Of a stretch of 64,000 nucleotides of DNA, positions 16,065 to 40,643 are shown one piece after another. Location of the stretch: contig JAEFAM010000001.1 of the NCBI GenBank assembly GCA_016287565.1, positions 137,344 to 201,343 of the forward strand. Reading direction: 5' to 3'. This DNA comes from Clostridia bacterium. Lineage in GTDB: Bacteria > Bacillota > Clostridia > UBA1212 > UBA1255. Below the pieces are notes generated by a model. It was not told the DNA's origin, searched no databases, and saw only the letters and a program-made list of their open reading frames with translations. Both the position numbers and the translations under genes were made by a program. Numbering within the stretch: the first letter of the stretch is position 1; each line of letters starts with the position of its first letter.

Positions 16065-18524
16065 ATGACAAAGCCAATCCTCAAAAGAGAATACGCCCAT
16101 CCTGTTTCTTTCCCCCTTCCTCCGCTGTGCGCGCAGGCGCCGCTGGAATTCGAGTGGTTTCCCACAAGGGCCCACTGTTTCGTATTCCGGAATTACGGGC
16201 TGGCGGGCGTTGACCGGCTGGCGGCGGTGCTGGGCTGCGGTCCCGATGAGGTGGAACGGCTGGCAAAAGAGATGGGACTCGGTCCGGAGGATCGGGCGGC
16301 GGAGGGGTTCGAAGAGCGCGGCTTCGTGACGCTGGTGCGCAACAACTGGCACGTGCTCGACTACGACGGACTGGCAGCGCTGCTGGGTATTGACGTGAAC
16401 GAGCTGGCAAAGTTGCTCAGGGAAAGCGATTTTCTTGACGTTAAAATGGGTGGAAGCAAACCTCCGGCGGGCGGGATCGCGGTGGAGCAGCTGAAGCCGG
16501 GCGACGAGGAGAAGCTGGCGCTCATCCGGAGCGTTATGGACGGGATCCGGGACAATTACCGCGAGAAGGCCGCGGAGAGATTCGATTTTTTCAATTTTAA
16601 TTCTGGCGGGCAGGGTGGCTGTCCGGCTGAAGGTTCCGGGCGATCCGGGTCCGCGGAGGGACAATTCGCAGGCCGGTTCAGGAACCGCATGATCTATTCA
16701 TATTCCGCGGTCTTCGGGGACCTGTTCGGCGAAGGGGAGCGCGCCATCGAAAAGGCGTTTCCGGAGGAATTGCTGGCGGAATATTCGCGGCTGGGAATCA
16801 ACGGGTTGTGGGCGCCTGCGCTTTTGAGAGAACTGGCGCCGTTTCCGTTTTTTGGCGATGCGGTTGACGGCGGTCCGGCCGCAAATAACGAGGCTTTTGC
16901 CGCGGAGGTTGCCGGTCAATACCAAAAACGCCTGGAAAATATGCGGAAAACCGTTGACAGACTCGGTCGGTACGGCATCCGGCTGTTCATCTACCTGAAC
17001 GAGCCCCGGAGCCTGCCGGAGGAAGCGTTTCGCGATCATCCGTCAATAAAAGGCGACGTGTCCGGCAGCGACGCGTCCCTGTGCGTTGCCGCGGACGAAG
17101 TGAGAAACTGGCTCAGGGACAGCGCGGAATATATTGTCAGAAACGTGCCCGGCCTGGGCGGGTTCATCACCATCACCGCCTCCGAGAACAAGACGAACTG
17201 CTACAGCGGCTGGATGGGGAAACCTCCCGCAGGGACCGGTTGCCCGCACTGCTCGCGGCTGTCCCGGGAACGTGTGTTCGCGGACGTCAATAACCTGATC
17301 GCGGAGGGTGCAAAGCGCGCGGATCCGAATTTTGAAGTCATTGCCTGGAACTGGGGCTGGGACGCGCCCGGCAGCAGCGAGGCGTCTCTTCGGGCGCTTG
17401 ATTTTCTGGACAACGGGATCTCGGCCATGTGCGTCAGCGAGGGCGGCGCCCGCAAGAACGTCAAGGGCACGGAGACGGTGGTGATAGATTATTCCATCTC
17501 GGTGGGAGGCCCCGGGGAGTGCGCGAGATCGTTCTGGGGCAAGGCCGCGTCGCAGGGGAGGCGGAGTTACGCGAAGATGCAGGTGTCGAACACCTGGGAG
17601 ATCTCAGCGGTGCCTTTTTTGCCTGTTTTCAGGACGGTTTACGGCCACCTGAAGCGGATCTGCGAGACCGGGAGCGTGACCGATCTGATGCTGGGCTGGA
17701 CGCTGGGCGGTTATCCCGGCGACACGCTCAGAATGGCGTCGTTCTTTTACGGAGACGCAGGGGAGAACCGTCGGAGCGCACGAATCGGGCAGGACGGAGA
17801 GAACGGACAGAAATTGCCGGTACCGCCGCTGGAAGAGATATACCGGAAAATGTATCCGGGAGCGTGCGTTGACAGACTCGCCGCGGCCTTTGACGCGTTT
17901 TCCGACGCATTCGACAGCTACCCCTTTTCGCTGGGTACGATCTACACGGCCCCGTTCCAGTACGGCCCCGCGAACCTGCTGTTCACGAAAAAGACGGGTT
18001 ACCGGGCAACGATGGTAGGTTTCCCTTATGACGACGTTGACAGCTGGCGGTCGAATTTTCCCGGGGACACGTTTCGGGCGTGTCTGGAGGAGATGGCGGA
18101 CAAGTGGGAAAAAGGTCTCGAACTGCTTGACGGCGAGCTGGACAATATCCGGAAAACGGTGGATAATTGCAAAAAAAGTGGGGAAAACTGCGAAAAAAGC
18201 GTGGAAAACGTTGAAACGAGTGTGGATACGCTTCGCGTCCTCGAGAGCATCCGGACGATCTCCGAGGCAGTGCTTGTCCATTTCCGGTCGGTGCTGAACC
18301 AGTTCGCGTTTGTGTGCGACAGGGACAGAGGCGTTGTCCGCAGGGACCTTTTGGAGAGCGAATCGGCTCTTGCAATGCGGCTGATCGGCTGCGTCCGGAA
18401 TGATCCGCGCATCGGCTTCGAGGCGTCCAACCACTATTTTTACACGGAGAGAAATCTGGCGGAAAAGATGATCAACTGCGAGTACTTGTTGAGAACGTCC
18501 GGCTGTTCTCATGTGGAAAGGTGA
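16065..18524 (+). CDS. Hypothetical 819-aa protein, possibly a TIM-barrel (clan GH-A-like) glycoside hydrolase.
   Basis: YLNEP motif (clan GH-A acid/base-like), CVSEGG, NWGWDAPG and a Cys cluster CPHCS. No signal peptide. Its C-terminal codons run into a repeat element. Confidence 0.65.
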   Translation: MTKPILKREYAHPVSFPLPPLCAQAPLEFEWFPTRAHCFVFRNYGLAGVDRLAAVLGCGPDEVERLAKEMGLGPEDRAAEGFEERGFVTLVRNNWHVLDYDGLAALLGIDVNELAKLLRESDFLDVKMGGSKPPAGGIAVEQLKPGDEEKLALIRSVMDGIRDNYREKAAERFDFFNFNSGGQGGCPAEGSGRSGSAEGQFAGRFRNRMIYSYSAVFGDLFGEGERAIEKAFPEELLAEYSRLGINGLWAPALLRELAPFPFFGDAVDGGPAANNEAFAAEVAGQYQKRLENMRKTVDRLGRYGIRLFIYLNEPRSLPEEAFRDHPSIKGDVSGSDASLCVAADEVRNWLRDSAEYIVRNVPGLGGFITITASENKTNCYSGWMGKPPAGTGCPHCSRLSRERVFADVNNLIAEGAKRADPNFEVIAWNWGWDAPGSSEASLRALDFLDNGISAMCVSEGGARKNVKGTETVVIDYSISVGGPGECARSFWGKAASQGRRSYAKMQVSNTWEISAVPFLPVFRTVYGHLKRICETGSVTDLMLGWTLGGYPGDTLRMASFFYGDAGENRRSARIGQDGENGQKLPVPPLEEIYRKMYPGACVDRLAAAFDAFSDAFDSYPFSLGTIYTAPFQYGPANLLFTKKTGYRATMVGFPYDDVDSWRSNFPGDTFRACLEEMADKWEKGLELLDGELDNIRKTVDNCKKSGENCEKSVENVETSVDTLRVLESIRTISEAVLVHFRSVLNQFAFVCDRDRGVVRRDLLESESALAMRLIGCVRNDPRIGFEASNHYFYTERNLAEKMINCEYLLRTSGCSHVER

Positions 18525-18599
18525 CAGTGGAACGGTGACAGACTTGAGTTTTCGTGCCGTCAAACGGTTCTCGAACGGGTGACAGACTTGATTTAATTT
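18520..18599 (+). repeat. Dispersed repeat element E1 (modules A+, B+, A+) overlapping the stop codon of the upstream CDS.
   Basis: AACGGTGACAGACTTGAGTTTT / CGTGCCGTCAAACGGTTCTCG / AACGGGTGACAGACTTGATTT. Confidence 0.8.
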
Positions 18600-18676
18600 C
18601 CCGGCTCGGGTAAGATACCGGCGAAGGGCCGTTGACCCAAAACGAGCGGATGCAGTAGATAAGGAGCAAGGCAGAT

Positions 18677-19963
18677 ATGGCGGAAGCAGCGGAGAAACGT
18701 GTTGACCCGGGAGCAGGAGCAGAAGAGCCGAGGCCGGAGCCGAGAGTTGCCCGGTTCGAGCAGCTGGCGTTCGGGATGTTTGTGCATTTCGGGCTTTATT
18801 CGATACTGGGGCGCGGCGAATGGGTGCGCGAGATCGAAAAGATCCCGGCGGACGAGTACGAGCCGCTGGCCGGGCGGTTCGAGCCGGGCAATATGCGGCA
18901 GATCGTCAAGGTCGCGAAGGCGGCGGGCTGTTCGTACGTGACGTTGACAACGCGGCATCACGACGGTTTTTCGTTGTACGATGCAGGCGAAGCGAATGAG
19001 AATGTTTGCGATGCTTTTGACGCGGTCAGGTCAGCCGCCGGGCGCGATCTGGTTGCCGAATTTGTTGACGCGTGCCGGGGCGAGGGGCTGTTGCCGTTCT
19101 TTTATCACACGACGCTGGACTGGCACCGGCGGGAATTTCGCGAGGATTTCCCGGCGTATTTGCGGTATCTGGAGCGGAGCGTGGAGATCCTGTGCCGGAA
19201 TTACGGGCCGGTGGGCGGTTTCTGGTTCGACGGCAACTGGTCGCGAAACGACGTTGACTGGCAGGAAGAGAGGCTTTACAAGCTGATCCGGCGACTTCAG
19301 CCGGAGGCGATGATCATCAACAACACCGGGCTGGAGGCGCGCGGCAAACTCGGGTGCGAGGAAATCGACGCGGTCACCTTCGAGCGAGGGCGGCCTGATC
19401 CGATGGACCGGCGGGGGCAACCGAAATACGTTGCCGCGGAGATGTGCGAGACGCTTTGCGACCATTGGGGCAAGGCGGCGCTTGACGTCAATTTCAAGTC
19501 GGTGGGCCTGCTGATCGAGGAGCTTTGCGAGTGCCGGAAGGTTGGGGCCAATTTTTTGCTGAACGTGGGGCCGGACGGTGACGGTTCGGTGGACGGTATG
19601 CAGCGGGCGACGATGGAGTGCATCGGGCGCTGGATGAGCGTGTATGGAAGGGCGATCCGCAACGGGCGTCCTTTTTTGCGTTATCCTGACCGGCGGGAGT
19701 TCCTGCTCCGCGACGCTTTTGACGACAATGTCGCGTATCTTTTTAAATTTGATCCTTCGAAATATGTGGAGCCGGGGCCGGTCGCGCCGGACGCCAACCG
19801 TCTGGTGCTGGGGCGGATCCCGGGAAAAGTCGCGTCGATCCGCTGGATGGACGGGAAAGAGGCGGCTTTCGAGCAGCGCGGCAACGAGCTGGCGGTGGAG
19901 CTGACGCCTTTTCCGTACGGGACGAGCTTTCCGGTGCGGGTGGCGGAGGTCGTGTTTGAATAA
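18677..19963 (+). CDS. Alpha-L-fucosidase (GH29).
   Basis: FGMFVHFGLYS...AKAAGCSYVTLTTRHHDGFSLYD...FWFDGNW are diagnostic GH29 motifs. Confidence 0.85.
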   Translation: MAEAAEKRVDPGAGAEEPRPEPRVARFEQLAFGMFVHFGLYSILGRGEWVREIEKIPADEYEPLAGRFEPGNMRQIVKVAKAAGCSYVTLTTRHHDGFSLYDAGEANENVCDAFDAVRSAAGRDLVAEFVDACRGEGLLPFFYHTTLDWHRREFREDFPAYLRYLERSVEILCRNYGPVGGFWFDGNWSRNDVDWQEERLYKLIRRLQPEAMIINNTGLEARGKLGCEEIDAVTFERGRPDPMDRRGQPKYVAAEMCETLCDHWGKAALDVNFKSVGLLIEELCECRKVGANFLLNVGPDGDGSVDGMQRATMECIGRWMSVYGRAIRNGRPFLRYPDRREFLLRDAFDDNVAYLFKFDPSKYVEPGPVAPDANRLVLGRIPGKVASIRWMDGKEAAFEQRGNELAVELTPFPYGTSFPVRVAEVVFE

Positions 19964-20094
19964 GCGAGAACCGTTTGACGGCACGCAAAAAGCAAGTCTG
20001 TCACGCGTTCGCACCTCGGAAAAACCAAGTCTGTCACCTGTTCGCTTACCCGTCTAAACGGCTTCGCGTGAATACCTAAATAAGGAAGACAATT
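19964..20094 (-). repeat. Dispersed repeat element E2 (B-, A-, A-, partial C, D). Module D AATAAGGAAG supplies the RBS of the downstream gene.
   Basis: GCGAGAACCGTTTGACGGCACG, two CAAGTCTGTCAC units, TTACCCGTCTAAACGGCTTCGCG, then CCTAAATAAGGAAGACAATT just before the ATG. Confidence 0.8.
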
Positions 20095-21036
20095 ATGAGC
20101 AATATCATTGAAATAAACAGCCTCGACGCACCTGAACTTGACCCGATCCTGCGGCTCACCGGCCGCCAGCTGGTCAATAAATTGCACCCCGACGAGGGGT
20201 CGTTCGTCGTCGAGAGCCCGATCGCTATTGACGCGGCGCTTACCGCCGGGTGCGAACCCGTGGCGCTGCTGGTGGAGGAGCGGTTCATCCGGGGCAATAT
20301 GCAGGGCAGGGCGGCGGAAATCGTTGACCGTGTCGGCAATGCGCCGGTCTACGTGGCTTCCCGGGAGCTGCTTGCGGGAATAACCGGCTTCGAGCTGACG
20401 CGCGGGGCAATGTGCGTGATGCGGAGGCCGGCGGAGCGGGGCTGGCGCGAGGTGATTGCCGGGGCAAGAAGGGTCGCCGTGCTGGAAAATATCGTTGACA
20501 GCACTAACGTGGGGGCAATTTTTCGCTCTGCCGCGGGGCTGGGCATTGACACGGTGCTGCTGACGCCCGAGTGCTGCGATCCGCTGTGCAGGCGTGCGGT
20601 GCGCGTGAGCATGGGGACGGTGTTGATGGTGCCTTTTGCGCGGATCTGCGAGGAAGCGGAAAACAGGCCGCGAACGGGGGACAGACTTGGGTTTTCGCCG
20701 GCGCGAACGGGGGACAGACTTGGGTTTTCGCCGCCGCGAACGGGTGACAGACTTGAGTTTTCCGGGTCCGGCTGGCCTCTTCCGGCGATCGACGAATTGA
20801 AAAAAAGCGGGTTCAAACTGGCGGCAATGGCGCTTCGCGACGACTCTCTGGCGGTCAACGACCCTGCCCTTCGCTCGGCGGAGAAGCTGGCGATCGTTCT
20901 GGGCACGGAGGGTGACGGACTTCTGCAGGAGACGATCGACAATTGCGATTACACGGTCTGCATTCCCATGGCGGGGCGGGTCGATTCATTGAACGTCGGA
21001 GCCGCAGCGGCCATCGCATTTTTCGAAATGGTTTAA
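20095..21036 (+). CDS. TrmH/SpoU-family RNA 2'-O-methyltransferase (RlmB-like), carrying an in-frame 33-aa insertion derived from the repeat element.
   Basis: SpoU motifs VLENIVDSTNVGAIFRSAAGLG, LAIVLGTEGDGL, CIPMAGRVDSLNVGAAAAIAF. An inserted (RTGDRLGFSPA)x3 segment sits between conserved blocks. Confidence 0.85.
   Translation: MSNIIEINSLDAPELDPILRLTGRQLVNKLHPDEGSFVVESPIAIDAALTAGCEPVALLVEERFIRGNMQGRAAEIVDRVGNAPVYVASRELLAGITGFELTRGAMCVMRRPAERGWREVIAGARRVAVLENIVDSTNVGAIFRSAAGLGIDTVLLTPECCDPLCRRAVRVSMGTVLMVPFARICEEAENRPRTGDRLGFSPARTGDRLGFSPPRTGDRLEFSGSGWPLPAIDELKKSGFKLAAMALRDDSLAVNDPALRSAEKLAIVLGTEGDGLLQETIDNCDYTVCIPMAGRVDSLNVGAAAAIAFFEMV
20668..20765 (+). repeat. Three tandem 33-nt copies of repeat module A inside the TrmH-family CDS (in-frame).
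   Basis: CGAACGGGGGACAGACTTGGGTTTTCGCCGGCG x2 plus CGAACGGGTGACAGACTTGAGTTTTCCGG. Confidence 0.85.
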
Positions 21037-21043
21037 GTCAGGT

Positions 21044-21208
21044 GCGAACAGGTAACAGACTTGAGTTTTTGTCCTACCTCATTTAAAAACCAGCGAGAAG
21101 CCGTTTAGACTGGTAAGAATTTTGTCTTTCCAAAATTCGTGCCGTCAAACGGTTCTCGTGCGAACAGGTGACAGACTTGAGTTTTTCCCTTGAGTTTTTC
21201 CTCTTTCC
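21044..21208 (+). repeat. Dispersed repeat element E4 (A+, C-, B+, A+, partial tail).
   Basis: GCGAACAGGTAACAGACTTGAGTTTTT ... CGAGAAGCCGTTTAGACTGGTAAGAATTTTGTCTTTCCAAAATT CGTGCCGTCAAACGGTTCTCG TGCGAACAGGTGACAGACTTGAGTTTTT. Confidence 0.8.
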
Positions 21209-21257
21209 TCATAAAAAAACGCCGTTTGCCTATATAACAACCAGACCATTTATGCTA

Positions 21258-21266
21258 TAATGTTGA
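21258..21266 (+). promoter_or_regulatory. Extended -10 element (TGcTATAAT) upstream of xylA.
   Basis: TGCTATAAT lies 35 nt upstream of the xylA ATG. No clear -35. Confidence 0.35.
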
Positions 21267-21300
21267 CACCAACTGCAAAACCATCAACGGAGGATCGATC

Positions 21301-22617
21301 ATGGGCAGGTTTTTTGACTCGGACAAAATCACCTACAGAAGCGGCGCAAAAAGAGAGTTCCTTTGGTATGACCCGGAGCGGGTCGTCCTGGGCAAAACGA
21401 TGCGCGAGCACCTGAAATTTGCCGCGTCCTACTGGCACACGTTCGTTGCCGAGGGAGCGGATATGTTTGGCGTCGGCGTGCTGGACAAAAAGTTCGGCGG
21501 CGTTGACCCGTTCGACGTTTACCGGCGGAAGGCGGAAGCGGCGGCGGAGTTTATGGACATTCTGGGCATTGATTATTACTGTTTCCACGACCGCGACATT
21601 GCCCCGGAGGCTGCGACGCTGGCGGAAACCAACAGGAATCTTGACGAACTCAGCGATTATCTCGGAAAAGTGATGGCGGATCACGGCAAAAAACTGCTTT
21701 GGGGCACGGCGAACCTGTTCAACAACCCCCGTTATATGCACGGAGCCGGAACGTCGCCGTCGGTCGACGTGTTCGCGTTTGCCGCGGCGCAGGTCAAAAA
21801 GGCGCTTGACGTGACGGTCAAGCTGGGCGGCAACGGGTACGTTTTCTGGGGCGGCCGTGAAGGTTACGAGACGCTGCTCAACACGGATGTGGGTCTGGAG
21901 CAGGACAATATGGCGCGGCTGCTGTGGATGGCGGTTAATTACGGGCGCAAGATCGGTTTCAAGGGCGATTTCTACATCGAACCCAAGCCGAAGGAGCCCA
22001 CGAAGCACCAGTACGACTTCGACGCGGCAACGGTCATCGGATTTTTGCAGAAATACGGGCTTCAGAACGAGTTTAAGCTCAATATCGAGGCCAATCACGC
22101 CACGCTTGCCGGGCACACGTTCCAGCACGAGCTCAATATTGCCCGCGTCAACGGCGCGTTCGGTTCGATCGACGCGAATCAGGGCGACCTGCTGCTGGGC
22201 TGGGACACGGACCAGTTCCCGTCTGACCCCTACGAGGCAACGCTTTGCATGCTCGAAGTGCTGAAAGCCGGCGGCTTTACCAACGGCGGCCTCAATTTCG
22301 ACGCCAAGATACGCCGCGGCTCCTGCCGTCTGGACGATATGCTTGACGGGTACGTTCTGGGCATGGACACTTTCGCGCTGGGCCTGCTCACCGCCGCCCG
22401 TATTCTGGAAGACGGCAGATTGGAGGACCTGCGCGCGGACCGCTACGCTTCCTGGAACGGCGAGCTGGGGCAACGCATCCGTTCGGGCAATTCTTCTCTC
22501 GAGGAGCTGTCGGATTACGCTCTCGCGAAGGGCGATGTCCTGTCAAGTGTGGAGAGCGGCCGACAGGAGTACCTGGAGCACATGGTCAATCAGTTATTGT
22601 TTTCTTCTGATAAGTGA
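21301..22617 (+). CDS. xylA: Xylose isomerase.
   Basis: 438 aa. [23 protein letters not shown] and FEPKP..., full-length class II XylA pattern. Confidence 0.9.
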
Positions 22618-22640
22618 CGAGCGAAATAACGAAGGCAGAT

Positions 22641-22722: not shown

Positions 22723-24300
22723 ATGAAAAAATTTTTAGGCATCGAACTGGGATCCACGAGGATAAAATCCGTCCTCACCGACGAACGGGGGACAGTGATC
22801 GCGAAAGGCATATTCGACTGGGAAAACAGGCTTGTCCGGGGGCTGTGGAGCTACGACCTGGACGAAGCGCTGCGAGGCCTGGCGGAGAGTTACAAAGAGC
22901 TCTCGGAGGAATATGCGAAAAAAACGGGAGAAACGCTGAAAAAAGTTGACGCGGTGGGAATTTCCGGCATGATGCACGGATATCTGGCGCTGGACGACGA
23001 AGACCGGCAGGTGGGGATATTCCAGACGTGGCGCAACACCCACACGGAAGCCGCGGCGACGGAATTGTCCGAGCTGTTCCGGTTCAACGTGCCGCAGCGG
23101 TGGAGCGTTGCCCAGTATTACCAGGCGGAGCTGTCCGGCGAGGACCACGTCAGGCATGCGGCGAAGCTGTTCACGCTGGCGGGGTACGTGCATTACAGGC
23201 TCACGGGCAACCACGTGTCGGGCGTGGGCGAGGCGTCGGGCATGTTTCCGGTGAACGGGAACGATTACGACGGAACAATGATCGAGGCGTTCGACAGGCG
23301 GCTGGCCGAGCGGGGGCTCCAGGTGCGGTTCCGTCAACTGCTTCCGAGGATCCAGATGGCGGGCGAGATCGGCGGCTATCTGACGCCCGAAGGCGCGAAA
23401 CTGATCGATCCCAGCGGCGAGCTGCTGCCGGGAGCGCCGCTGTGCCCTCCCGAAGGCGACATTCAGACCAATATGGTCTGCGCCAACTCCATCGCGGCGG
23501 GCGCGGGCAACGTTTCTGCCGGCACTTCCTGCAATCTGGTTGCCGTGCTGGACAAGCTTCCGGCCACTTACAGCCCCGACATCGACATCGTTTCCACGCC
23601 CGACGGATTGCCCGCGGCAATGATACATTCCAACAACTGCACTTCCGAGATCAACGCCTGGATCAACCTTTTCGGTGAATTGACCGCGCTTTTCGGACGG
23701 GAAGTGCCTAAAAACGAGCTTTTCCGGCAGCTTTTCCGCCATTCGCTGGAGAGCGACGGCGACGTGGGCGGCCTCGTGGGGTACAACTACCTGGCGGGCG
23801 AGGCCATTGCCGGGTGCGAGACCGGCGCCCTGACCGTCTCCCGCAACCCCTCGGGCAAGCTTTCTCTTGCCAACTTTATGCAGATGCAGATCTATTCCGC
23901 GCTGGGTGCGCTGTCTCTCGGCGTGGACAATCTTCGTTCCATCGGGGCCAACATCCGTTTCGTTACGGCGGCGGGCGGCTATTACAAGACCGAGTTCGTG
24001 GGGCAGAACGCTACTTCGTCAATGTTTGGCGTTCCCGTGACGGTGATGGCGGGCGCGGGCGAGGGCGGCCCCTGGGGCATGGCCCTGCTGGCGATCTATA
24101 TGTTCGTCGCGAACGGGGGACAGACTTGCGTTCGCGGCGGTGAGCTGACGCTGGCGCGGTTCCTGGACGACGTCTTTGCCGACGTGGAGAAGACTACCGT
24201 CATGGCGACGCAGGAGGAGATCGACAAGTGCCGCCGGTTTACCGAGAGGTACAAGAAGTGCCTTGACGCGCAGCGCAGGATGACGGAGCTTATTCGATAA
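22723..24300 (+). CDS. FGGY-family carbohydrate kinase (putative xylulokinase) with a 9-aa in-frame repeat-derived insertion.
   Basis: GIELGSTRIKSV N-terminal ATPase motif. About 525 aa. Follows xylA. RBS AAAGGAG. The NGGQTCVRG segment is encoded by the repeat. Confidence 0.8.
   Translation: MKKFLGIELGSTRIKSVLTDERGTVIAKGIFDWENRLVRGLWSYDLDEALRGLAESYKELSEEYAKKTGETLKKVDAVGISGMMHGYLALDDEDRQVGIFQTWRNTHTEAAATELSELFRFNVPQRWSVAQYYQAELSGEDHVRHAAKLFTLAGYVHYRLTGNHVSGVGEASGMFPVNGNDYDGTMIEAFDRRLAERGLQVRFRQLLPRIQMAGEIGGYLTPEGAKLIDPSGELLPGAPLCPPEGDIQTNMVCANSIAAGAGNVSAGTSCNLVAVLDKLPATYSPDIDIVSTPDGLPAAMIHSNNCTSEINAWINLFGELTALFGREVPKNELFRQLFRHSLESDGDVGGLVGYNYLAGEAIAGCETGALTVSRNPSGKLSLANFMQMQIYSALGALSLGVDNLRSIGANIRFVTAAGGYYKTEFVGQNATSSMFGVPVTVMAGAGEGGPWGMALLAIYMFVANGGQTCVRGGELTLARFLDDVFADVEKTTVMATQEEIDKCRRFTERYKKCLDAQRRMTELIR
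24108..24136 (+). repeat. Single repeat module A (palindromic CGCGAACG-GGGGACAGACTTG-CGTTCGCG) inserted in-frame in the FGGY kinase CDS.
   Basis: Identical 27-nt core to the copy at 39299-39327. Confidence 0.8.
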
Positions 24301-24302
24301 AG

Positions 24303-24450
24303 ACGCGAACCGTTTGACGGCACGAAGCGCGAACCGTTTGAGGGCACGAATTTTGGAAAGACAAAATTCTTACCCGCCTAAACGGCTTCGCGCGGGTTTT
24401 AAATAAGGAAAGAATTGCCCGAAACCCAAGTCTGTCACCTGTTCGCGGGC
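24303..24450 (-). repeat. Dispersed repeat element E6 (B-, B-, C, D, A-).
   Basis: GCGAACCGTTTGACGGCACGAA x2, AATTTTGGAAAGACAAAATTCTTACCCGCCTAAACGGCTTCGCG, TTAAATAAGGAAAG, CCCAAGTCTGTCACCTGTTCGCG. Confidence 0.8.
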
Positions 24451-24474: not shown

Positions 24475-24503
24475 TTGACACGTCCGGGCAACGCTTTTAT
24501 AAT
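24475..24503 (+). promoter_or_regulatory. Consensus sigma-A promoter (TTGACA, 17 bp, TATAAT) for the downstream lipoprotein gene.
   Basis: Perfect hexamers and spacing read directly. RBS GGGAGGG before ATG 24531. Confidence 0.6.
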
Positions 24504-24530: not shown

Positions 24531-26378
24531 ATGAAGAAAAGAACGCGCATAACAGTATTGACGCTCGCACTGGCGCTGGCCGCGGCGATATTGACCGGGC
24601 TCAGTTCCTGCGGAAAAACGGGCGGTGACGGAGATCCCAACCGGTTGTCGCGGGAGGACCAGGCGAGGGCGGAAAAACTGTTGTCCTCGGTGAGCGTGTC
24701 GGAGGTCCCGGCCATCAAAAACGAGAAGGTCGCCGCGGCGCAGGAGGATCCGGACATTTCGGTGTGGTTCGACCATTCGTTCCGCAACACGCCGGCGGAG
24801 GACGTGACGCCCACAGATTTCGACGCGTACCAGATCAAGCTGGCGAAAAACGAGATCGAGGGGTGCCACTTTATTGTCGCCTCGAAAACGGCGAAAACCG
24901 ATATTTCGCTCTCGGTATCGCCATTCATTGACGCTGCGGGGCACGTTCTGGACTGCGAGGTGTGCTACGGCTGGTATTTCGAGGGCGTCGAGGGCAAGAC
25001 CGTCGCAGATCCGATCCCGGTGCTGGAGCACAGCTTCGATCTGGCCGCCGGACGCAGCCAGATGTTTATTATCAAGGTCAAATCTACCGCCGAAACGAAC
25101 GCGGGTCAATATTCTGCCGTGGTGACGTTGACGGACGGCGCGGGCAAGGAGCTGAAAAAGGCCAACGTTTATGCATTCGTATGGGATTTTGCCCTTCCCG
25201 CCGCCTCCAGCTGCAAGACGCTCAGCGACCTCAACGAATGGAGCGTGATCGTGGGCGCCAACCGCGAAGAGACCACCGTTGACGGTCTCGAAGACGATCT
25301 TTACGCGCTTTATTACGAATATTTGCTGGAAAATAAGATAAATTGCTACACTTTGCCCTACGCGAAACGGGGCCAGTTTTGGGACGAGCGGGTGGAGCAG
25401 TACCTGGACGACCCGCGGCTGACGGCGTACACGCTGTGCTGGAAGATCCATCCGGAAGCCACTGCCAGCGACGACAACCTGAAAGCGTACCTCCAGGCGG
25501 CCTACGACCGGGTCTCGAAGAAGCAGGAGTGGCTGGACAAGGCATATTTTTACCCCAACGAGGGGGACGAACCGCTCACGCAGGCGACTCTGGACCTCAT
25601 AAAAAAGTACGATTCCATGTACACTGCCGTTTTCGGCAGCCACAAACTGATAATTCCCGTTCATTACGACACGGTACTGCCCTCCGGCGACGATTTCTTC
25701 CGCTATTTGGAGGATGCGGTCAACGTCTGGTGCCCGAAAACCTACTTTTTTAACACCGCGGCGGACAAAAAATACAACGATCAGCTCTACACGGAGTTCT
25801 ACGGACCCGAAATGGAGAGCAATTTCGGCCTGTTCAAAGACCGGATGGCCGCGGCCCGGGCGGACGGCGACGAAGTGTGGTGGTACGTCACCCGCTTCCC
25901 CCACGACCCCGAGATCACGTTGTCCATCAGCGACGAATCCGTGAAGCACCGCCTGCTGTTCTGGCAGCAAAAGCTGTACAACGTTGACGGATTTTTGTAT
26001 TACATGGTCAACGACTGGGAAAATGCCAAACAATGGACGAAAAAGTATGAGAGCGACGTCATGGGGACGACGGTCAACACCTACGGCAACGGCGTGCTGA
26101 TCTACCCGGGCGGGGCGCTTCAGGAATATATCGACAAGTACGGGAGCGACGGCTACCCGGGCCCCATCGGTTCGCTCAGGCTGGAGTCGGTGCGCGACGG
26201 GGTGGAAGATTACGATTATTTCACGATCCTCGATCAGCTTTACGGCGAAGGAACGTCAACCCTGCTGATCAGGCAGATCACCACGTCGCTGGGCTCTTAC
26301 AGCACGGACACGGAACTGTTCGACAGGCTGAGGACGGCGGCGGGGGACCTGATAGCGAAAAAGACTGCGCGAAACTGA
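24531..26378 (+). CDS. Lipoprotein with a DUF4091-like putative glycoside-hydrolase domain.
   Basis: Lipobox LTGLSSCG. 615 aa. VWDFALP and other blocks recalled as DUF4091-like. Assignment is from memory and is moderate. Confidence 0.7.
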   Translation: MKKRTRITVLTLALALAAAILTGLSSCGKTGGDGDPNRLSREDQARAEKLLSSVSVSEVPAIKNEKVAAAQEDPDISVWFDHSFRNTPAEDVTPTDFDAYQIKLAKNEIEGCHFIVASKTAKTDISLSVSPFIDAAGHVLDCEVCYGWYFEGVEGKTVADPIPVLEHSFDLAAGRSQMFIIKVKSTAETNAGQYSAVVTLTDGAGKELKKANVYAFVWDFALPAASSCKTLSDLNEWSVIVGANREETTVDGLEDDLYALYYEYLLENKINCYTLPYAKRGQFWDERVEQYLDDPRLTAYTLCWKIHPEATASDDNLKAYLQAAYDRVSKKQEWLDKAYFYPNEGDEPLTQATLDLIKKYDSMYTAVFGSHKLIIPVHYDTVLPSGDDFFRYLEDAVNVWCPKTYFFNTAADKKYNDQLYTEFYGPEMESNFGLFKDRMAAARADGDEVWWYVTRFPHDPEITLSISDESVKHRLLFWQQKLYNVDGFLYYMVNDWENAKQWTKKYESDVMGTTVNTYGNGVLIYPGGALQEYIDKYGSDGYPGPIGSLRLESVRDGVEDYDYFTILDQLYGEGTSTLLIRQITTSLGSYSTDTELFDRLRTAAGDLIAKKTARN

Positions 26379-26441
26379 AGTCTGTCACCCGTTCGAGAAC
26401 CGTTTGACGGCACGAAACTGAAGTCTGTCCCTCGTTCGGGG
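26378..26441 (-). repeat. Dispersed repeat element E7 (A-, B-, A-), starting at the stop codon of the upstream CDS.
   Basis: GAAGTCTGTCACCCGTTCG AGAACCGTTTGACGGCACGAA ACTGAAGTCTGTCCCTCGTTCGGGG. Confidence 0.8.
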
Positions 26442-26463
26442 GGCGTCAAGGAGGTCGGTTTTT

Positions 26464-30321: not shown

Positions 30322-31457
30322 CCGTTTCAACGGCCGTCCCGCCGGGCGCCCCTGCCGGAGAGGCGTCGTGTGCCCCGTCCGGCGCCCCGTCCTGCGCCCC
30401 GGCCGCCGCTGTTGCTCCTTCTTTCGGTCAACGCCTGAAGGCGGAATTCGGCCGGAAAGTTTACAAATTGTCCCTGGATATCGGCTGCACCTGCCCCACC
30501 CGCGACGGCACCAAAGGCACGCGCGGCTGCATTTTCTGCTCTCAGGCCGGCAGCGGCGACTTCGCCGTACGGTTCACCGGCAAACAGGAAGAACTTGACC
30601 TGGCCAAATCCCGTCTCAAAGGCAAGATCGACACGGACAATGCCGGTTTTATCGCTTATTTTCAAAATTTCACCAACACGTACGCTCCCGTTACGTACCT
30701 GGAGACGCTTTTCACCGCCGCGCTGAAAGACCCGTCGGTTGTGGCGTTGTCGATCGCCACGCGGCCCGACTGCCTCGGGAGCGACGTCATCGAAATGATC
30801 CGACGGCTGTGCCTGCGGACAACCATTTTCGTGGAGCTTGGCCTTCAGACCATCCATCCTGCCACCGCGGCTTTCATCCGCCGCGGCTTCGACCTGCGCG
30901 AGTACGACGATGCGGTGGTCGCGCTTCACGGCGCCGGCGCCAGGGTGGTGACCCACCTGATATTCGGGCTGCCTTATCCGGTTGCCGGACGCAAGTCTGT
31001 CCGAGAACCGTTTGACGGCACGAATTTTGGAAAAAACAAAATTCTTACCCGTCTAAACGGCTTCTCGCTGGTTCCGAACAAGGAAAGGAAGCAGGAACTA
31101 AGGCCTGTTATTTGTTCGGCTGAAACGGAACTGGCCCTCGAGTCGAGGGAAATGATGCTGGGATCGGTAAGATACGTTGTCCGCGCCGGAACGGACGGAG
31201 TGAAATTTCAGCTGCTCCACGTACTTAAAGGGACGGACCTGGCGGACCTGTACCTGCGAGGCGCGTTCAGAACGTTGACCTTCGACGAATACAAGGAAAT
31301 AATAAAAGAGGCAGCCGAGCTGCTGCCTCCCGAAATCGCCATTCACCGCCTCACCGGCGACCCGCCGCGAAAACTGCTGATCGCGCCACAATGGTGCACC
31401 GACAAAAAGCGGGTATTGAACGAGATCAATCGAAAAATTCTTCGTAAAGCGCCTTGA
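30318..31457 (+). CDS. TIGR01212-family radical SAM protein (YhcC-like), carrying an about 36-aa in-frame insertion encoded by a composite repeat element.
   Basis: GCTCPTRDGTKGTRGCIFCSQ radical-SAM Cys motif typical of TIGR01212. 379 aa against about 310 aa typical. The inserted segment VAGRKSVREPFDGTNFGKNKILTRLNGFSLVPNKERKQ maps onto repeat modules A-, B-, C. Confidence 0.8.
   Translation: MTVSTAVPPGAPAGEASCAPSGAPSCAPAAAVAPSFGQRLKAEFGRKVYKLSLDIGCTCPTRDGTKGTRGCIFCSQAGSGDFAVRFTGKQEELDLAKSRLKGKIDTDNAGFIAYFQNFTNTYAPVTYLETLFTAALKDPSVVALSIATRPDCLGSDVIEMIRRLCLRTTIFVELGLQTIHPATAAFIRRGFDLREYDDAVVALHGAGARVVTHLIFGLPYPVAGRKSVREPFDGTNFGKNKILTRLNGFSLVPNKERKQELRPVICSAETELALESREMMLGSVRYVVRAGTDGVKFQLLHVLKGTDLADLYLRGAFRTLTFDEYKEIIKEAAELLPPEIAIHRLTGDPPRKLLIAPQWCTDKKRVLNEINRKILRKAP
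30986..31091 (-). repeat. Composite repeat element E8 (A-, B-, C, D-like) lying entirely inside the radical SAM CDS, in-frame.
   Basis: CGGACGCAAGTCTGTCCGAG AACCGTTTGACGGCACGAA TTTTGGAAAAAACAAAATTCTTACCCGTCTAAACGGCTTCTCG ...AACAAGGAAAGG. Confidence 0.8.
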
Positions 31458-35851: not shown

Positions 35852-36057
35852 GCAGGGGACAGAGGAGCAACGGGGGACAGACCCCGGTTGCCGATGCCGG
35901 AAACGCAAGTCTGTCCGCGAATCGTTTGACGGCACGAATTTTGGAAAGACAAAATTCTTACCCGTCTAAACGACTTCGCGCCGGTTTTGTAATAAGGAAA
36001 CAGAAGTCTGTTCCTCATTTCCTGGCGGGGAAACAGAAGTCTGTCCCTCGTTCGCGG
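35852..36057 (-). repeat. Dispersed repeat element E9 (partial A+, A-, B-, C, D, A-, A-).
   Basis: ...CAACGGGGGACAGAC; GGAAACGCAAGTCTGTCCGCG AATCGTTTGACGGCACGAA TTTTGGAAAGACAAAATTCTTACCCGTCTAAACGACTTCGCG ...TAATAAGGAAACAGAAGTCTGTTCC...CAGAAGTCTGTCCCTCGTTCGCGG. Confidence 0.8.
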
Positions 36058-36138
36058 TTGAAGACAGCGGGCCTTATGTGGTATATTATTGGAAGAATAT
36101 TGACCCTGTTGACGCGGACGACGCGGGAGGGAGCAGAA

Positions 36139-36906
36139 GTGGAACGCAAAAAAGAGAGTGTTGACCGGAAGAGCGGAGCAGGCGGGGAGAAACTGCCTGT
36201 GGTCGCCGTCGTTCTTGCCGCGGGCAAGGGCAGGCGCATGGGGACGGCGGTCCCGAAGCAGTTTGCCGAAGCGGAAGGGCGGCCGGTGCTGGCCTATACT
36301 GTGGAAAAGTTCCAGGAACACCCGGAAGTTGACGGGATCATCGTGATATGCGGCCGCGGAAGCAGGAAAATTGTCACCGAAATATGCAAAAAAAGCAATT
36401 TCTCGAAAGTCAAGCGCGTTGCCGCCGGAGGAAGGACCAGGCGCGAGTCCTCATACAAGGGGGTCAAGGCCGCCGAAAAGCTGTACGGCGACTGCGTGGT
36501 TCTGATCCACGACGCGGCGAGGCCCAACGTGACCGGGAGCGTGATCTCGGACAATATCCGCCTGGCAAAGAAGTTCGGCGCCTGCGTAACGGCGGCCAGG
36601 GCCGTCGACACGGTAGTGACCAGCGTCGACGGGCAGCTGATTTCGGGCCTCATCCCCAGGGACACGGTCTGGACGGTCCAGACGCCCCAGTCCTTCCGGC
36701 TCGGCGTGATCCTGAACGCCCACGAACTGTACGAACAATCGATCGCCGCAGGAGAAAACGTCCCCGATATCACCGACGACGGAAGCCTGGTGAGGTTTGC
36801 CGGCGGCGAAGTTGCCATCTGCGAATCCGGCCGCGACAATTTTAAATTGACGGTTCCCGCCGATCTGGAACTGTTCCGGGCGATGCTGAAAAGAGGGAAA
36901 ACGTAA
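36139..36906 (+). CDS. ispD: IspD/TarI-family cytidylyltransferase (2-C-methyl-D-erythritol 4-phosphate or ribitol-5-phosphate cytidylyltransferase).
   Basis: LPVVAVVLAAGKGRRMG...PKQF...HDAARP...VQTPQSF. GTG start preceded by GGGAGG. The ORF frame extends upstream into the repeat. IspD versus TarI cannot be distinguished from the sequence alone. Confidence 0.7.
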   Translation: MERKKESVDRKSGAGGEKLPVVAVVLAAGKGRRMGTAVPKQFAEAEGRPVLAYTVEKFQEHPEVDGIIVICGRGSRKIVTEICKKSNFSKVKRVAAGGRTRRESSYKGVKAAEKLYGDCVVLIHDAARPNVTGSVISDNIRLAKKFGACVTAARAVDTVVTSVDGQLISGLIPRDTVWTVQTPQSFRLGVILNAHELYEQSIAAGENVPDITDDGSLVRFAGGEVAICESGRDNFKLTVPADLELFRAMLKRGKT

Positions 36907-38597: not shown

Positions 38598-40643
38598 ATG
38601 AAACCGTCAAAAACAGATCTTGCCCTCGGAAAATATCTGCCCCGCTTCACCGAAAGCGGCATCGTCCCCTTCAGCTACAAGCTCGACGGAGTTGCCTATA
38701 ATGGCATCCCCGCGGAATTTTCGCCCAAAGCGGAAACGCGTAAGATCGACGCCAACATCATCTTCTCGGTGATCACCGGCAGGACGCCCGCGGGCCTGGA
38801 GCTCAGGGCCGAATGCAAAGAATATATCGATTATCCCGTGACCGAATGGGTCATGTCTATGACGAACACGGACTCCGCGAATTCGGCGGTGATAACCGGC
38901 TGGCAGGCAGAAGCGGAATTTCCGTTGACGCCATTCAACGAGGAGGCTCCGGAGCCGCGGGACGGGAAAAATAACGCGAAACTTCTCCACGGCAACGGCG
39001 ACAACGTCACCGATCAGGGCTACTCCTGGTTCGTTGACGCGCTGTGCCCCGAGCCCCTCTGCATCGCGCCCTCGGGAGACGGGACCTCCTGCAACGGCGC
39101 ATTCCCGTACATGCGGCTGATCCTGGACGGGTACGACGTCAATATCGCCGTGGGCTGGACCGGGACCTGGCAGCTGACCGCCTCCGAGAGCGGCGGGACC
39201 GTCAAGATCGCTGCGTCTCAGAAGCGTTTCAACACCTACCTCGAACCCGGTGAGACGGTGCGCACCCCGCTGCTGGTGCTCCAGACCGCTTCCGACTGCC
39301 GCGAACGGGGGACAGACTTGCGTTCGGCCGGATGCGACCAGGACGCTGCCCGCAACCTCTGGCGCAGCTGGTACATCGACCACGTGCTGCCCAGGCAGGA
39401 CGGCAGACCCCTTCAGCCCAAGCTGGTGCTCCACACGTTCATGATAGATGGATTGCCCGAATTTTGCGGCGTCACCGAAGAAAACCAGCTAAAAGCGATA
39501 CAGACGTATATTGACCGCCGCCTCAAACCGGACATCTGGTGGATCGACGCAGGCTGGTACCCCTGCAACAACAACTGGCCCACGGGCACCGGCAACTGGT
39601 TCCCGAACCCGGATCATTTCCCCGACGGCATGCATAAGGTCGGAGAAATATGCAAGGCAAACGGCATCGACCTGCTGCTCTGGTTCGAGCCGGAGCGCGT
39701 CTACCGTAACACGGAGCTTTGGAACGACCACCCCGAATATCTGATCTTCGGTGCCCCCGAGGACGACAACGCACTCCTGTTTCTGGGCGATCCCGCCGCC
39801 CGCAGGTGGATCACCGACCGTGTGGACAACGTCATCAAAGAGGCCGGGGTCAATGTCTACCGCCAGGATTTCAACTTCGCGCCTGCGAGCTACTGGGCCC
39901 GCGGCGAGGCGGACAACAGGCAGGGCATTCACGAAAACCTGCATATCCAGGGCTATTATGCATTCTGGGACGAGCTGCTCAGGCGCAACCCCGGGCTCTG
40001 GATCGACTCCTGCTCCTCCGGCGGCCGCCGCAACGACATAGAAACCATGAAGCGCGCCGTGCCCCTCCACTACACCGACATCGGCTACGGCCACCATCCC
40101 ACCAAACAGAAGCAGCACCGCCAGATGTTCGAGTGGATACCATATTTCCGCGCCCACAATATGAGCTGGGACAGGCCAGACGGCACCTACGGCGGCAATA
40201 TGCCCGTTGACGAGTTCGCGTACCAGAACGCCCTCACGCCCTCCGTCACCTCGATGATAGAGTGGAACGACCCGGAGGAGCGGTTCGAGATCGGCCGCGC
40301 GTTCCATCCCATCTGGCGAAAAGCGGCCGAGATCATGCTCCGCGCCGATTACTACCCGTTGACCGAGACCAACGCCAGCCCCGCCGACTGGTATGCCATG
40401 CAGTTCTACGATCCGGAGCGCCGGGACGGTTTCGTCCAGGTGATACGTAATATTGCCGTCGAGGATGGCCGGACGACGCTTTTCGGCTTCGTTCCGGAGG
40501 AAAATCTCCACAGGATCTACCGGTTCTACGACCCGGTCTCCAATCAGGTCTGGACCATGTCCGGCGAGAATTTCCGCTCGGGCGGCTTCGAGGAGACGCT
40601 CCCGAAACGCAGCGGCAGGATCTGGTTCTATTGTGTTTTGTGA
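38598..40643 (+). CDS. GH36-like glycoside hydrolase, cytoplasmic paralog of 4418-6541, carrying a 9-aa in-frame repeat-derived insertion.
   Basis: WWIDAGWY, LLLWFEPE, YRQDFNF, CSSGGRRND motifs. RBS AGGAG. CRERGTDLRS is extra relative to the paralog. Confidence 0.8.
   Translation: MKPSKTDLALGKYLPRFTESGIVPFSYKLDGVAYNGIPAEFSPKAETRKIDANIIFSVITGRTPAGLELRAECKEYIDYPVTEWVMSMTNTDSANSAVITGWQAEAEFPLTPFNEEAPEPRDGKNNAKLLHGNGDNVTDQGYSWFVDALCPEPLCIAPSGDGTSCNGAFPYMRLILDGYDVNIAVGWTGTWQLTASESGGTVKIAASQKRFNTYLEPGETVRTPLLVLQTASDCRERGTDLRSAGCDQDAARNLWRSWYIDHVLPRQDGRPLQPKLVLHTFMIDGLPEFCGVTEENQLKAIQTYIDRRLKPDIWWIDAGWYPCNNNWPTGTGNWFPNPDHFPDGMHKVGEICKANGIDLLLWFEPERVYRNTELWNDHPEYLIFGAPEDDNALLFLGDPAARRWITDRVDNVIKEAGVNVYRQDFNFAPASYWARGEADNRQGIHENLHIQGYYAFWDELLRRNPGLWIDSCSSGGRRNDIETMKRAVPLHYTDIGYGHHPTKQKQHRQMFEWIPYFRAHNMSWDRPDGTYGGNMPVDEFAYQNALTPSVTSMIEWNDPEERFEIGRAFHPIWRKAAEIMLRADYYPLTETNASPADWYAMQFYDPERRDGFVQVIRNIAVEDGRTTLFGFVPEENLHRIYRFYDPVSNQVWTMSGENFRSGGFEETLPKRSGRIWFYCVL
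39299..39327 (+). repeat. Single repeat module A inserted in-frame in GH36-like gene #2.
   Basis: CGCGAACGGGGGACAGACTTGCGTTCGG. The paralog at 4418-6541 lacks these codons at the aligned position. Confidence 0.85.

What the first reader, a model, noticed from the sequence alone, without database searches (positions are those of the whole stretch)
19964..20094. Repeat elements supply or abut translation and transcription signals of downstream genes
Module D (CCTAAATAAGGAAGACAATT) ends 0-1 nt before the TrmH-family ATG, so its AAGGAAG is the only plausible RBS. The element at 24303-24450 is followed 25 nt later by a perfect TTGACA-17-TATAAT promoter. Element E9 (35852-36057) directly precedes the ispD-like gene. 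Element E7 abuts the RBS of the sugar-phosphate isomerase gene. The family may therefore rewire the expression of neighbouring genes.
Basis: inference. Interest (0 to 1): 0.6.

Follow-up and report, generated by a model that had tools for sequence, protein, structure and literature searches.

The report
Mobile repeat donates a ribosome-binding site
A small modular repeat found only in this uncultured gut-type Clostridia lineage has been inserted between two genes that overlap in relatives, and it now carries the only ribosome-binding site for the downstream methyltransferase gene.

Summary
The repeat family is real. Its modules are A, an AT-rich loop, C, D and a 33-nt B unit, and A pairs with C in a 25-bp hairpin. 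Module D is a true module: in all 10 independent copies, RAGGWA lies 10-13 nt after C.

The spoU/TrmH claim is supported. The whole 131-nt spacer 19964-20094 is element sequence. Element-free relatives have no spacer: fucosidase and spoU overlap by 4 nt (ATGA), and the spoU Shine-Dalgarno lies inside the fucosidase coding end. In the window that native site is about 140 nt away. D's AAGGAAG, 6 nt before the ATG, is the only candidate and is weak (-5.1 kcal/mol).

The other three claims are adjacency only. The perfect promoter at 24475-24503, the AAGGAGG at 26448-26454, and the ispD promoter-like site and RBS all lie in flanks shared with a sister lineage. That lineage carries different module cassettes at the same sites.

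The family resembles pneumococcal BOX, MIRU, RPE and Correia elements and is new only in sequence. It also sits in frame inside five coding sites. No expression data exist, so use of the RBS is inferred.

The parts
19965..19985 (+). Module A (CGAGAACCGTTTGACGGCACG), the left arm of the family hairpin. It starts 1 nt after the fucosidase stop codon (TAA 19961-19963).
19985..20046 (+). Two B units (33-nt period, core CAAGTCTGTCAC). Here they replace the usual AT-rich loop between A and C.
20045..20068 (+). Module C (CTTACCCGTCTAAACGGCTTCGCG), the right arm of the hairpin.
20069..20094 (+). Module D. Its SD-like AAGGAAG lies at 20082-20088, 6 nt before the spoU ATG. It is the only SD candidate for spoU and is inferred to be the functional RBS.
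20095..21036 (+). SpoU/TrmH-family methyltransferase gene (313 aa). The start codon is confirmed by the conserved N-terminus.
20667..20762 (-). Three tandem 33-nt B units in frame inside spoU (11-aa repeat RTGDRLGFSPP). Related alleles carry 2 or 4 copies and distant homologues none. The model shows a disordered loop here.
21043..21186 (-). Full-length element B-A-loop-C-D-B in reverse orientation, after the spoU stop. The xylA2-like gene's own extended -10 promoter and RBS lie downstream in conserved flank.
18526..18594 (-). B-A-B element between the 819-aa gene and fucosidase. The upstream gene's TGA stop (18522-18524) lies in a B-like fragment.
24304..24449 (+). Element A-A-loop-C-D-B after the FGGY kinase stop. 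Its hairpin is followed by GGGTTTTAAAT, which is terminator-like.
24475..24503 (+). Perfect sigma-70-type promoter TTGACA-17-TATAAT for the GH123-like gene (ATG 24531, SD GGGAGGG 24517-24523). It lies outside the element. It is conserved in the sister lineage, which has only A-B at this site.
26369..26440 (+). Element E7 (B-A-B). The TGA stop of the GH123-like gene (26376-26378) lies inside it.
26448..26454 (+). AAGGAGG RBS of the xylose-isomerase-like TIM-barrel gene (ATG 26464), 7 nt beyond the element. It is host flank, identical in the sister lineage.
30988..31122 (+). 135-nt element (partial B-A-loop-C-D-degenerate B) inserted in frame in the radical SAM (TIGR01212-like) gene. It adds 45 aa and is absent from the sister-lineage allele. 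This shows that D travels with the element.
35869..36057 (+). Element E9 (B-like cores, A-loop-C-D, two B units) in the divergent spacer between the threonine synthase-like gene and ispD.
36058..36141 (+). Host flank holding a promoter-like TTGAAG-18-TGgTATATT (36058-36087), SD GGGAGGGAG (36125-36133) and the ispD GTG start (36139). It is conserved in the sister lineage behind a different cassette.
24107..24133 (-). Single B hairpin unit in frame inside the FGGY kinase gene. The sister lineage has two copies.
39299..39324 (-). Single B unit inside the melibiase-family gene.

Best explanation
The window holds a lineage-restricted family of small, non-coding, modular interspersed repeats. They resemble BOX, REP and MITE elements.

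**Anatomy.** The full unit is B-A-loop-C-D-B, about 150 nt. A and C pair into a 25-bp hairpin. B is a 33-nt unit that expands and contracts in tandem. D follows C and carries a conserved motif: stop codons followed by RAGGWA.

**How it changes.**
- Whole units insert. A filled and an empty site are seen in the radical SAM gene.
- B copy number changes.
- Modules are exchanged between copies. The result is a hypervariable cassette between conserved host flanks.

**Effect at fucosidase-spoU.** One such element was inserted at a junction that, in element-free relatives, is a 4-nt ATGA overlap with translational coupling. The insertion pushed the native spoU SD, which lies inside the fucosidase coding end, about 140 nt away. 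D's AAGGAAG was left 6 nt before the spoU ATG. Ribosomes most likely now start spoU translation from this weaker, element-borne site, on a transcript that still begins upstream of fucosidase.

**Elsewhere.** The elements only sit beside the host's own promoters and ribosome-binding sites. At two genes they supply the stop codon instead.

**Shown versus inferred.** Shown: the module anatomy, the insertion, the empty sites and the conservation of the flanks. Inferred: that D is the RBS actually used, that spoU is co-transcribed with fucosidase, and how the elements move.
For: **Repeat family.**

**Hairpin.** It folds at -34.6 kcal/mol, z = -5.4. It has 25 pairs, of which 3 show compensatory changes. 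97% of cells are paired, and 2 of 500 shuffles reach the observed value.

**D module.** RAGGWA lies at +10 to +13 after every one of 10 independent C modules. D also lies inside the 135-nt insertion that the sister allele of the radical SAM gene lacks.

**Empty state at spoU.**
- Loci L045-L050 have no module hits.
- In L045, fucosidase is at 122-1384 and spoU at 1381-2178, an ATGA overlap.
- Their SD, GGAAGTGGAG (-8.8 kcal/mol), lies in the fucosidase coding sequence.

**Constancy of D at spoU.**
- Three element-bearing alleles (window, L009, L007) differ in their internal modules.
- They are identical in GAATACCTAAATAAGGAAGACAATT plus the ATG.
- The L041 lineage is more diverged. It has lost any recognisable C but keeps a homologous D, with shuffle p about 0.01.

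**No competing signal.** There is no other SD within 25 nt of the ATG. No promoter-like site lies in the spacer.

**Host signals elsewhere.** They are conserved behind different cassettes.

**B copy-number variation.** It is seen.

**No known counterpart.** Rfam, plasmid and phage searches found nothing. The 26 hits to the A 18-mer among GTDB species representatives are singletons in unrelated phyla and carry no other module.
Against: - There are no transcript, TSS or ribosome data, so use of D as the RBS is inferred.
- D's SD is weak: -5.1 kcal/mol against a generic anti-SD, compared with -8.7 to -12.8 for most neighbouring genes.
- The element-free relatives are distant (57-61% SpoU identity). 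The state just before insertion is therefore reconstructed, not observed.
- A second distant lineage (L004) has another gene between fucosidase and spoU.
- Only 1 of about 10 D copies sits at a start codon.
- No transposase or RAYT gene is in the window.
- The direct repeat at the radical SAM insertion is imperfect, so the mobility mechanism is open.
Confidence: 0.65

Rival explanations
1. The 26 nt before spoU are the gene's own ancestral leader and RBS. The element (A-B-B-C) merely landed upstream of it. The D-like sequence in other copies exists because a founder element at this locus captured the spoU leader, or because the sequences converged.
For: The L041 lineage keeps GAATATGATAAGGAAAAATTGAA-ATG with no recognisable A, loop or C upstream. 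D plus the ATG is the only constant part across four lineages.
Against: Element-free relatives have no leader at all, only a 4-nt gene overlap. RAGGWA lies at the family-typical +13 from C. D is inside the unit inserted into the radical SAM gene. The spoU D shares GGAAGACA with a D copy at another locus.
Confidence: 0.1
2. The hairpin-plus-D unit is a host-beneficial, portable intercistronic cassette. The hairpin would act as a terminator, an mRNA stabiliser or a processing site. Stop codons in two frames and an SD would keep downstream cistrons translated. The cassette would be kept by selection rather than as selfish DNA.
For: RAGGWA is positionally conserved although the rest of D varies. 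TAA, TGA or TAG precedes it in 8 of 10 copies. About half the copies have a T-run right after the hairpin. Elements start 1-4 nt after stop codons or contain them. MIRUs show a comparable arrangement (PMC3184786).
Against: Both orientations occur between co-directional genes. Cassettes at orthologous sites differ or lack the hairpin, with no change to the flanking genes. Copies lie inside coding regions. The spoU-proximal copy has no T-run and folds no better than shuffles, z = -0.28. Stops are expected often in AT-rich sequence.
Confidence: 0.15
3. The elements act as outward-reading promoters, as Correia elements do. The A module's TTGACG and the loop's CAAAAT, 18 nt apart, would drive transcription through C-D into the downstream gene.
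For: TTGACG-18-CAAAAT scores 9 of 12 and is present in each A-loop copy. Most A-loop-C-D copies point toward the downstream gene.
Against: Matches of 9/12 occur about 2-3 times per region in shuffles. The -10 lacks the first T. The motif lies inside a very stable hairpin. The spoU-proximal copy lacks the loop altogether. Downstream genes have their own, better promoters.
Confidence: 0.08
4. The repeated B core and the A/C palindrome are arrays of binding sites for a DNA-binding regulator or nucleoid protein that controls this glycan-utilisation region.
For: All copies cluster in 18.5-39.3 kb, among glycoside hydrolase and sugar-metabolism genes. None occur in the rest of the window or in 10 kb beyond it. 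The L041 lineage has head-to-head arrays of the B core in three neighbouring spacers.
Against: Copies also lie in frame inside coding regions and next to housekeeping genes such as ispD, the radical SAM gene and spoU. Number, order and orientation differ freely between close lineages. The B units behave as minisatellites.
Confidence: 0.05

Closest known systems
BOX elements of Streptococcus pneumoniae and S. suis (boxA-boxB(n)-boxC; PMC3049150)
   Same: Both are composite repeats built from distinct modules. The two outer modules pair into a stem-loop. The middle module is present in a variable tandem number that differs between strains. Both are mostly intergenic, cluster and nest, and can affect or extend neighbouring genes.
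   Different: The host is an unrelated uncultured Clostridia lineage, and no sequence relation was found. B is 33 nt here. The family has an extra AT-rich loop and an SD-bearing D module. B occurs alone, in head-to-head arrays, and in frame inside genes.
Mycobacterial interspersed repetitive units (MIRU; Supply et al. 1997, as summarised in PMC3184786)
   Same: Both are short tandem units lying between cistrons of an operon and transcribed with them. Their ends meet or overlap the stop and start codons of the flanking genes. Both show filled and empty sites and variable copy number.
   Different: MIRUs carry small ORFs that bridge the two genes. Here the spacer is not an ORF and instead offers an SD. 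The sequence and host differ.
Correia elements of Neisseria (PMC10969869)
   Same: Both are small non-autonomous repeats lying just upstream of genes. Correia elements donate expression signals.
   Different: Correia elements donate promoters, have defined terminal inverted repeats and carry an IHF site. Here only a weak promoter-like match exists, and the donated signal is an RBS.
Rickettsia palindromic elements (RPE; PMC10969869)
   Same: Both are palindromic repeats of about 100-150 bp inserted in frame into functional protein-coding genes, adding a peptide segment.
   Different: In RPEs, in-frame insertion into genes is reported at an unusually high frequency. Here most copies are intergenic, and tandem 11-aa expansions also occur.
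REP/BIME elements and SPRITE (PMC3184786, PMC3049150)
   Same: All are short G+C-based palindromes at the 3' ends of genes, combined in mosaics. Some copies look like intrinsic terminators.
   Different: There is no 5' GTAG signature and no RAYT gene in the window. The hairpin is much longer, with an AT-rich tip.

Membership tests
BOX-type composite repeat | Modular A-B(n)-C build, with A and C pairing and B in variable tandem number | tested here: met
   Module maps. A/C hairpin. B present in 2, 3 or 4 copies between alleles.
BOX-type composite repeat | Sequence homology to boxA, boxB and boxC of streptococci | not tested
   No BOX consensus sequences were available in the tools. The host is a Clostridia lineage, and PMC3049150 reports BOX as rare outside mitis-group streptococci and S. 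suis.
MITE | Short, non-coding, multicopy, with filled and empty sites | tested here: met
   About 150-nt units at 11 loci in the window. A 135-nt filled site against an empty site in the radical SAM gene. A spacer against a 4-nt overlap at fucosidase-spoU.
MITE | Terminal inverted repeats and a target-site duplication | tested here: inconclusive
   The inverted repeats (A and C) are internal, and the outer B units are direct repeats. The radical SAM insertion is flanked by an imperfect repeat of about 9 nt: GCCG-GACG and GCTGAAACG, against GCCGAGACG in the empty site.
MITE | A related autonomous IS with matching ends | tested here: not met
   No transposase domain was found in 30 window ORFs scanned against Pfam. 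The rest of the genome could not be searched.
REP/REPIN | Short palindrome with a conserved 5' GTAG, plus a RAYT transposase in the genome | tested here: not met
   Units begin CGCGAAC or CGAGAAC, not GTAG. No Y1 transposase lies in the window. A genome-wide test was not possible.
MIRU-like intercistronic repeat | Lies between co-directional cistrons and meets their stop and start codons | tested here: met
   The element spans from 1 nt after the fucosidase stop to 0 nt before the spoU ATG. The GH123-like gene's stop lies inside the element.
MIRU-like intercistronic repeat | The repeat unit carries a small ORF that overlaps both flanking genes | tested here: not met
   No ORF bridges 19964-20094. 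C and D contain TAA codons in two frames.
Correia-like promoter donor | A functional sigma-70 promoter within the element | tested here: inconclusive
   Only TTGACG-18-CAAAAT (9/12) lies within A-loop. The strong promoter at 24475 is outside the element and is conserved without the hairpin.
RPE-like intragenic repeat | In-frame insertion in intact genes, with the insert in a tolerated region | tested here: met
   spoU, FGGY kinase, radical SAM and melibiase genes. Residues 188-224 of SpoU have pLDDT below 30 and are coil.

The most novel reading that the evidence does not exclude
Module D is not an accident of sequence. On this reading it is an adaptation that lets the element live inside operons: a portable cassette of hairpin, stop codons and Shine-Dalgarno. 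The cassette would end any read-through translation and re-prime the downstream cistron. The element could then split even overlapping, translationally coupled gene pairs without killing the downstream gene. Such an 'operon-safe' design would explain why RAGGWA is fixed at +10 to +13 after C in every copy while the rest of D drifts.
Probability: 0.15. Interest if true: 0.6.

Novelty: new member of a known kind. Interest (0 to 1): 0.38.

Why it matters
It is a clean natural example of a selfish repeat replacing a gene's translation start signal. Two genes that are overlapping and coupled in relatives were pulled 131 nt apart, and the downstream gene now depends on a weaker, element-borne Shine-Dalgarno.

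It adds an uncultured Clostridia lineage to the short list of bacteria with BOX-, MIRU- or RPE-like repeats. It also offers strain-typing markers, because B copy number varies between alleles.

It warns annotators that the extra 11-aa repeats and the 45-aa insert in these enzymes are repeat-derived. It also shows that being next to a repeat is not evidence of regulation: three of the four cited signals are ordinary host signals.

Tried and rejected
- **Rfam.** No family matched, either at gathering threshold on the whole window or at E<=1 on 18400-26600.
- **Plasmids and phages.** blastn of a full element found no match.
- **GTDB species representatives.** An exact scan with the A 18-mer gave 26 singleton hits in unrelated phyla. 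None carried another module, so they are chance matches.
- **JGI metagenomes.** The C pattern found nothing. The A 20-mer found one further locus, seen in two assemblies (L037, L040), plus three hits that carry no other module.
- **Literature.** A search for the module sequences returned only unrelated primer matches.
- **SD sequestration.** I looked for D's SD being hidden in a structure at spoU. The fold is no better than shuffles and the SD is mostly open. A riboswitch- or thermometer-type reading was rejected.
- **A small ORF started by D.** No start codon sits at a consistent distance in the other copies.
- **Assembly artefact.** The locus is identical in two independent assemblies read here, L001 and L002.
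- **DNA-uptake-sequence reading of the B core.** All copies cluster in 21 kb, with none in the other roughly 53 kb examined.
- **Failed look-up.** The window's first gene was not on record, so the upstream flank could not be extended.

Full report
**1. What is at 19964-20094**

The window is about 57% G+C. It encodes glycoside hydrolases and housekeeping genes. The closest named homologues are from uncultured Clostridia.

The finding covers the whole spacer between an alpha-L-fucosidase gene (18677-19963) and a SpoU/TrmH-family methyltransferase gene (20095-21036). Every base of the spacer is repeat sequence:
- TAA stop, then G
- module A, 19965-19985
- two B units, 19985-20013 and 20018-20046
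- module C, 20045-20068
- module D, 20069-20094
- ATG at 20095

The ATG is the real start. M1 and the N-terminus MSNIIEI are conserved across homologues.

**2. The repeat family**

The B core matches 13 times in the window, against 0.18 expected. A profile of B finds 20 strong copies (E below 1e-3), all between 18.5 and 39.3 kb. The 10 kb beyond the window's right end has none.

The canonical unit is B-A-loop-C-D-B, for example 21043-21186 on the minus strand. A and C pair around an AT-rich loop that forms its own stem:
- The fold is -34.6 kcal/mol, z = -5.4.
- Across nine copies, 25 pairs are predicted and 3 show compensatory changes.
- 97% of cells pair, and only 2 of 500 shuffles reach the observed values.

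Searches for a known counterpart were negative:
- Rfam, plasmid and phage searches found nothing.
- The A 18-mer gave only chance singletons among 185,579 species representatives.
- JGI metagenomes yielded one more locus.
- No transposase lies in the window.

**3. Is D a module?**

Its core is not unique.

In all 10 independent C modules (window, L009, L042, L037), RAGGWA follows C at +10 to +13. The spoU copy has it at +13. Stop codons usually lie just before the motif.

D also lies inside a 135-nt element inserted in frame into the radical SAM gene (30988-31122). The sister lineage lacks that insert. Its allele is 334 aa against 379 aa, with empty site GCCGAGACGGAAC. So D travels with the element. 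In that coding copy the two TAA codons of D are absent.

D shares GGAA(A)GACA with the hairpin loop. The SD-like look may therefore be a family motif rather than a designed RBS (my reading).

**4. The decisive comparison for spoU**

More distant, element-free relatives keep fucosidase directly upstream of spoU. These are SpoU P0016 and P0014 (57-61% identity), at loci L045-L050, with no module or B-core hits. In them the two genes overlap by 4 nt:

...GTGGCGGAAGTGGAGTTTGCGCGATGAGCAATATC...

Their spoU SD, GGAAGTGGAG (-8.8 kcal/mol), lies inside the fucosidase coding end.

The window reads ...GTGGCGGAGGTCGTGTTTGAATAAG, then 130 nt of element, then ATGAGCAATATC. The 131-nt spacer is therefore an insertion into a junction that was probably translationally coupled. 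The native SD is now about 140 nt from the ATG.

Within 25 nt of the ATG, the only SD-like sequence is D's AAGGAAG (20082-20088), 6 nt before the ATG. It is weak: -5.1 kcal/mol, against -8.7 to -12.8 for most neighbouring genes. It is not sequestered. No promoter-like site lies in the spacer, so spoU is probably still transcribed with fucosidase (inference).

Four element-bearing lineages differ in the rest of the spacer:

| Lineage | Spacer composition |
|---|---|
| Window | A-B-B-C-D |
| L007 | A-B-partial C-D |
| L009 | A-loop-C-D'-B-C-D |
| L041 | arrays of the B core only |

Window, L007 and L009 keep GAATACCTAAATAAGGAAGACAATT-ATG unchanged. L041 keeps a homologous form of it. This fits selection on D as the working RBS.

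One caveat applies. The element-free relatives are distant, and another distant lineage has a gene inserted at this junction. The pre-insertion state is therefore reconstructed.

**5. The other three claims**

- **Promoter at 24475-24503.** It is a perfect TTGACA-17-TATAAT, 24-25 nt after the element. In the sister lineage the element at this site is only A-B, about 100 nt shorter and without a hairpin or D. The promoter, the 24-nt linker and the RBS are conserved, with two substitutions in the promoter's 17-nt spacer.
- **E7 (26369-26440).** It ends 7 nt before AAGGAGG (26448-26454). The sister lineage has A-loop-C-D-B-B there and the same RBS.
- **E9.** It ends at 36057. ispD starts at GTG 36139, matching the 255-aa gene call in L042. 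The 81 nt between hold TTGAAG-18-TGgTATATT and GGGAGGGAG. From GCGGTTGAAG onward the sequence is shared with L042, whose upstream cassette is entirely different.

These signals belong to the host, and the elements fill the space next to them. At the 3' side the elements do contribute. The last codons and the stop of the GH123-like gene are element sequence in both lineages: TGA in B in the window, and TGA in A in L009.

**6. How it most likely works**

- Units insert, as the filled and empty sites show.
- B behaves as a minisatellite: 2, 3 or 4 copies in spoU alleles and 1 or 2 in the FGGY kinase gene.
- Modules are exchanged between copies, perhaps at the shared CGCGAAC/GTTCGCG junctions (inference).

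The outcome is a hypervariable cassette between conserved flanks. RBS donation at spoU is best read as a single exaptation that allowed an insertion into a coupled gene pair to survive.

**7. Comparison with known systems**

| Known family | Shared feature | Source |
|---|---|---|
| Pneumococcal BOX | modular A-B(n)-C architecture with strain variation | PMC3049150 |
| MIRU | intercistronic position touching the flanking stop and start codons | PMC3184786 |
| RPE | in-frame gene insertions | PMC10969869 |
| Correia elements | donation of expression signals by small repeats | PMC10969869 |

I file this as a new member of a known kind. Homology to BOX was not tested. The MITE hallmarks (terminal inverted repeats, target-site duplication, autonomous partner) are inconclusive or unmet.

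**8. Verdict**

Interest is moderate.

Noticed in passing
window 20667-20762: Three tandem 33-nt B units lie in frame inside the SpoU methyltransferase domain, giving the repeat RTGDRLGFSPP. Related alleles have 4, 2 or degenerate copies, and homologues at about 60% identity have none. AlphaFold gives pLDDT below 30 and coil for residues 188-224.
   Followed up: yes
window 30988-31122: A near full-length element (135 nt, 45 aa) lies in frame inside the radical SAM (TIGR01212-like) gene, between its two Pfam domains. The sister-lineage allele P0242 lacks it. D's stop codons are absent in this copy. There is a possible imperfect 9-nt target duplication (GCCGAGACG).
   Followed up: yes
proteins P0243 and P0244 (radical SAM homologues, about 73% identity to the window protein): Another lineage pair differs by an unrelated 48-aa repeat-containing insert (KLYAGEF/KIYAGEF) at the same loop of the radical SAM protein. 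This suggests a recurrent permissive site, or a second intragenic repeat family.
   Followed up: no
window 24107-24133 and 39299-39324: Single B hairpin units lie in frame inside the FGGY kinase gene and a melibiase-family gene. L009 has two copies in FGGY. Across genes, B is read in all three frames (GDRL, GTDL, GQTC).
   Followed up: partly
window 26376-26378 and 18522-18524; L009 16186-16188: The stop codon and last codons of the GH123-like gene are element sequence in both lineages, from different modules. The 819-aa gene's stop lies in a B-like fragment. The repeats therefore supply 3' ends of genes.
   Followed up: partly
L041 (ENA ERZ28653721 scaffold_48534) 700-920, 1340-1490, 2270-2400, 2550-2700, 3680-3850: In the lineage with about 79% SpoU identity, three neighbouring spacers hold head-to-head arrays of only the B core (GCGCAGGGGACAGACTTG / CAAGTCTGTCCCCTGCGC), with no A, loop or C. 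Its fucosidase (P0122, 489 aa) has two in-frame B-core arrays (AGDRL x3, AQGTDL x3).
   Followed up: partly
window 18526-39324, compared with 1-18500, 39400-64000 and L043/L044: All copies of the family cluster in about 21 kb. None occur in the other 43 kb of the window or in the 10 kb downstream. This suggests local spread or a repeat 'nest'.
   Followed up: partly
window 21119-21148 (-), 35926-35955 (+), and other A-loop copies: A's TTGACG and the loop's CAAAAT, 18 nt apart, give a weak promoter-like match (9/12) pointing through C-D. The hairpin loop and D share the motif GGAA(A)GACA.
   Followed up: partly
window 56083-56222 and 57043-57467: Two unrelated tandem arrays lie in the 2-kb region between the GDSL lipase gene and rpsO-pnp. 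One has a 43-nt unit x3.3 starting at the lipase stop. The other has an 83-nt unit x5.1 containing an internal palindrome (AAACGCCCA...TGGGCGTTT).
   Followed up: no
window 38510-38559 and 14956-15022: There is a 10-nt repeat (AAATTCCGGA x4.9) immediately upstream of the melibiase start codon, and an 8-nt repeat (TGACCCGT x8.4) in the spacer after the nitroreductase gene.
   Followed up: no
L037 2001-2065 and L040 10330-10394 (JAEEGL/JAEEGF contigs): One further A-loop-C-D copy lies in a different genomic context, directly after a stop codon. It is flanked by a variant B (GTACCTGTCCCCCGTTCCGG), which suggests B subfamilies.
   Followed up: partly
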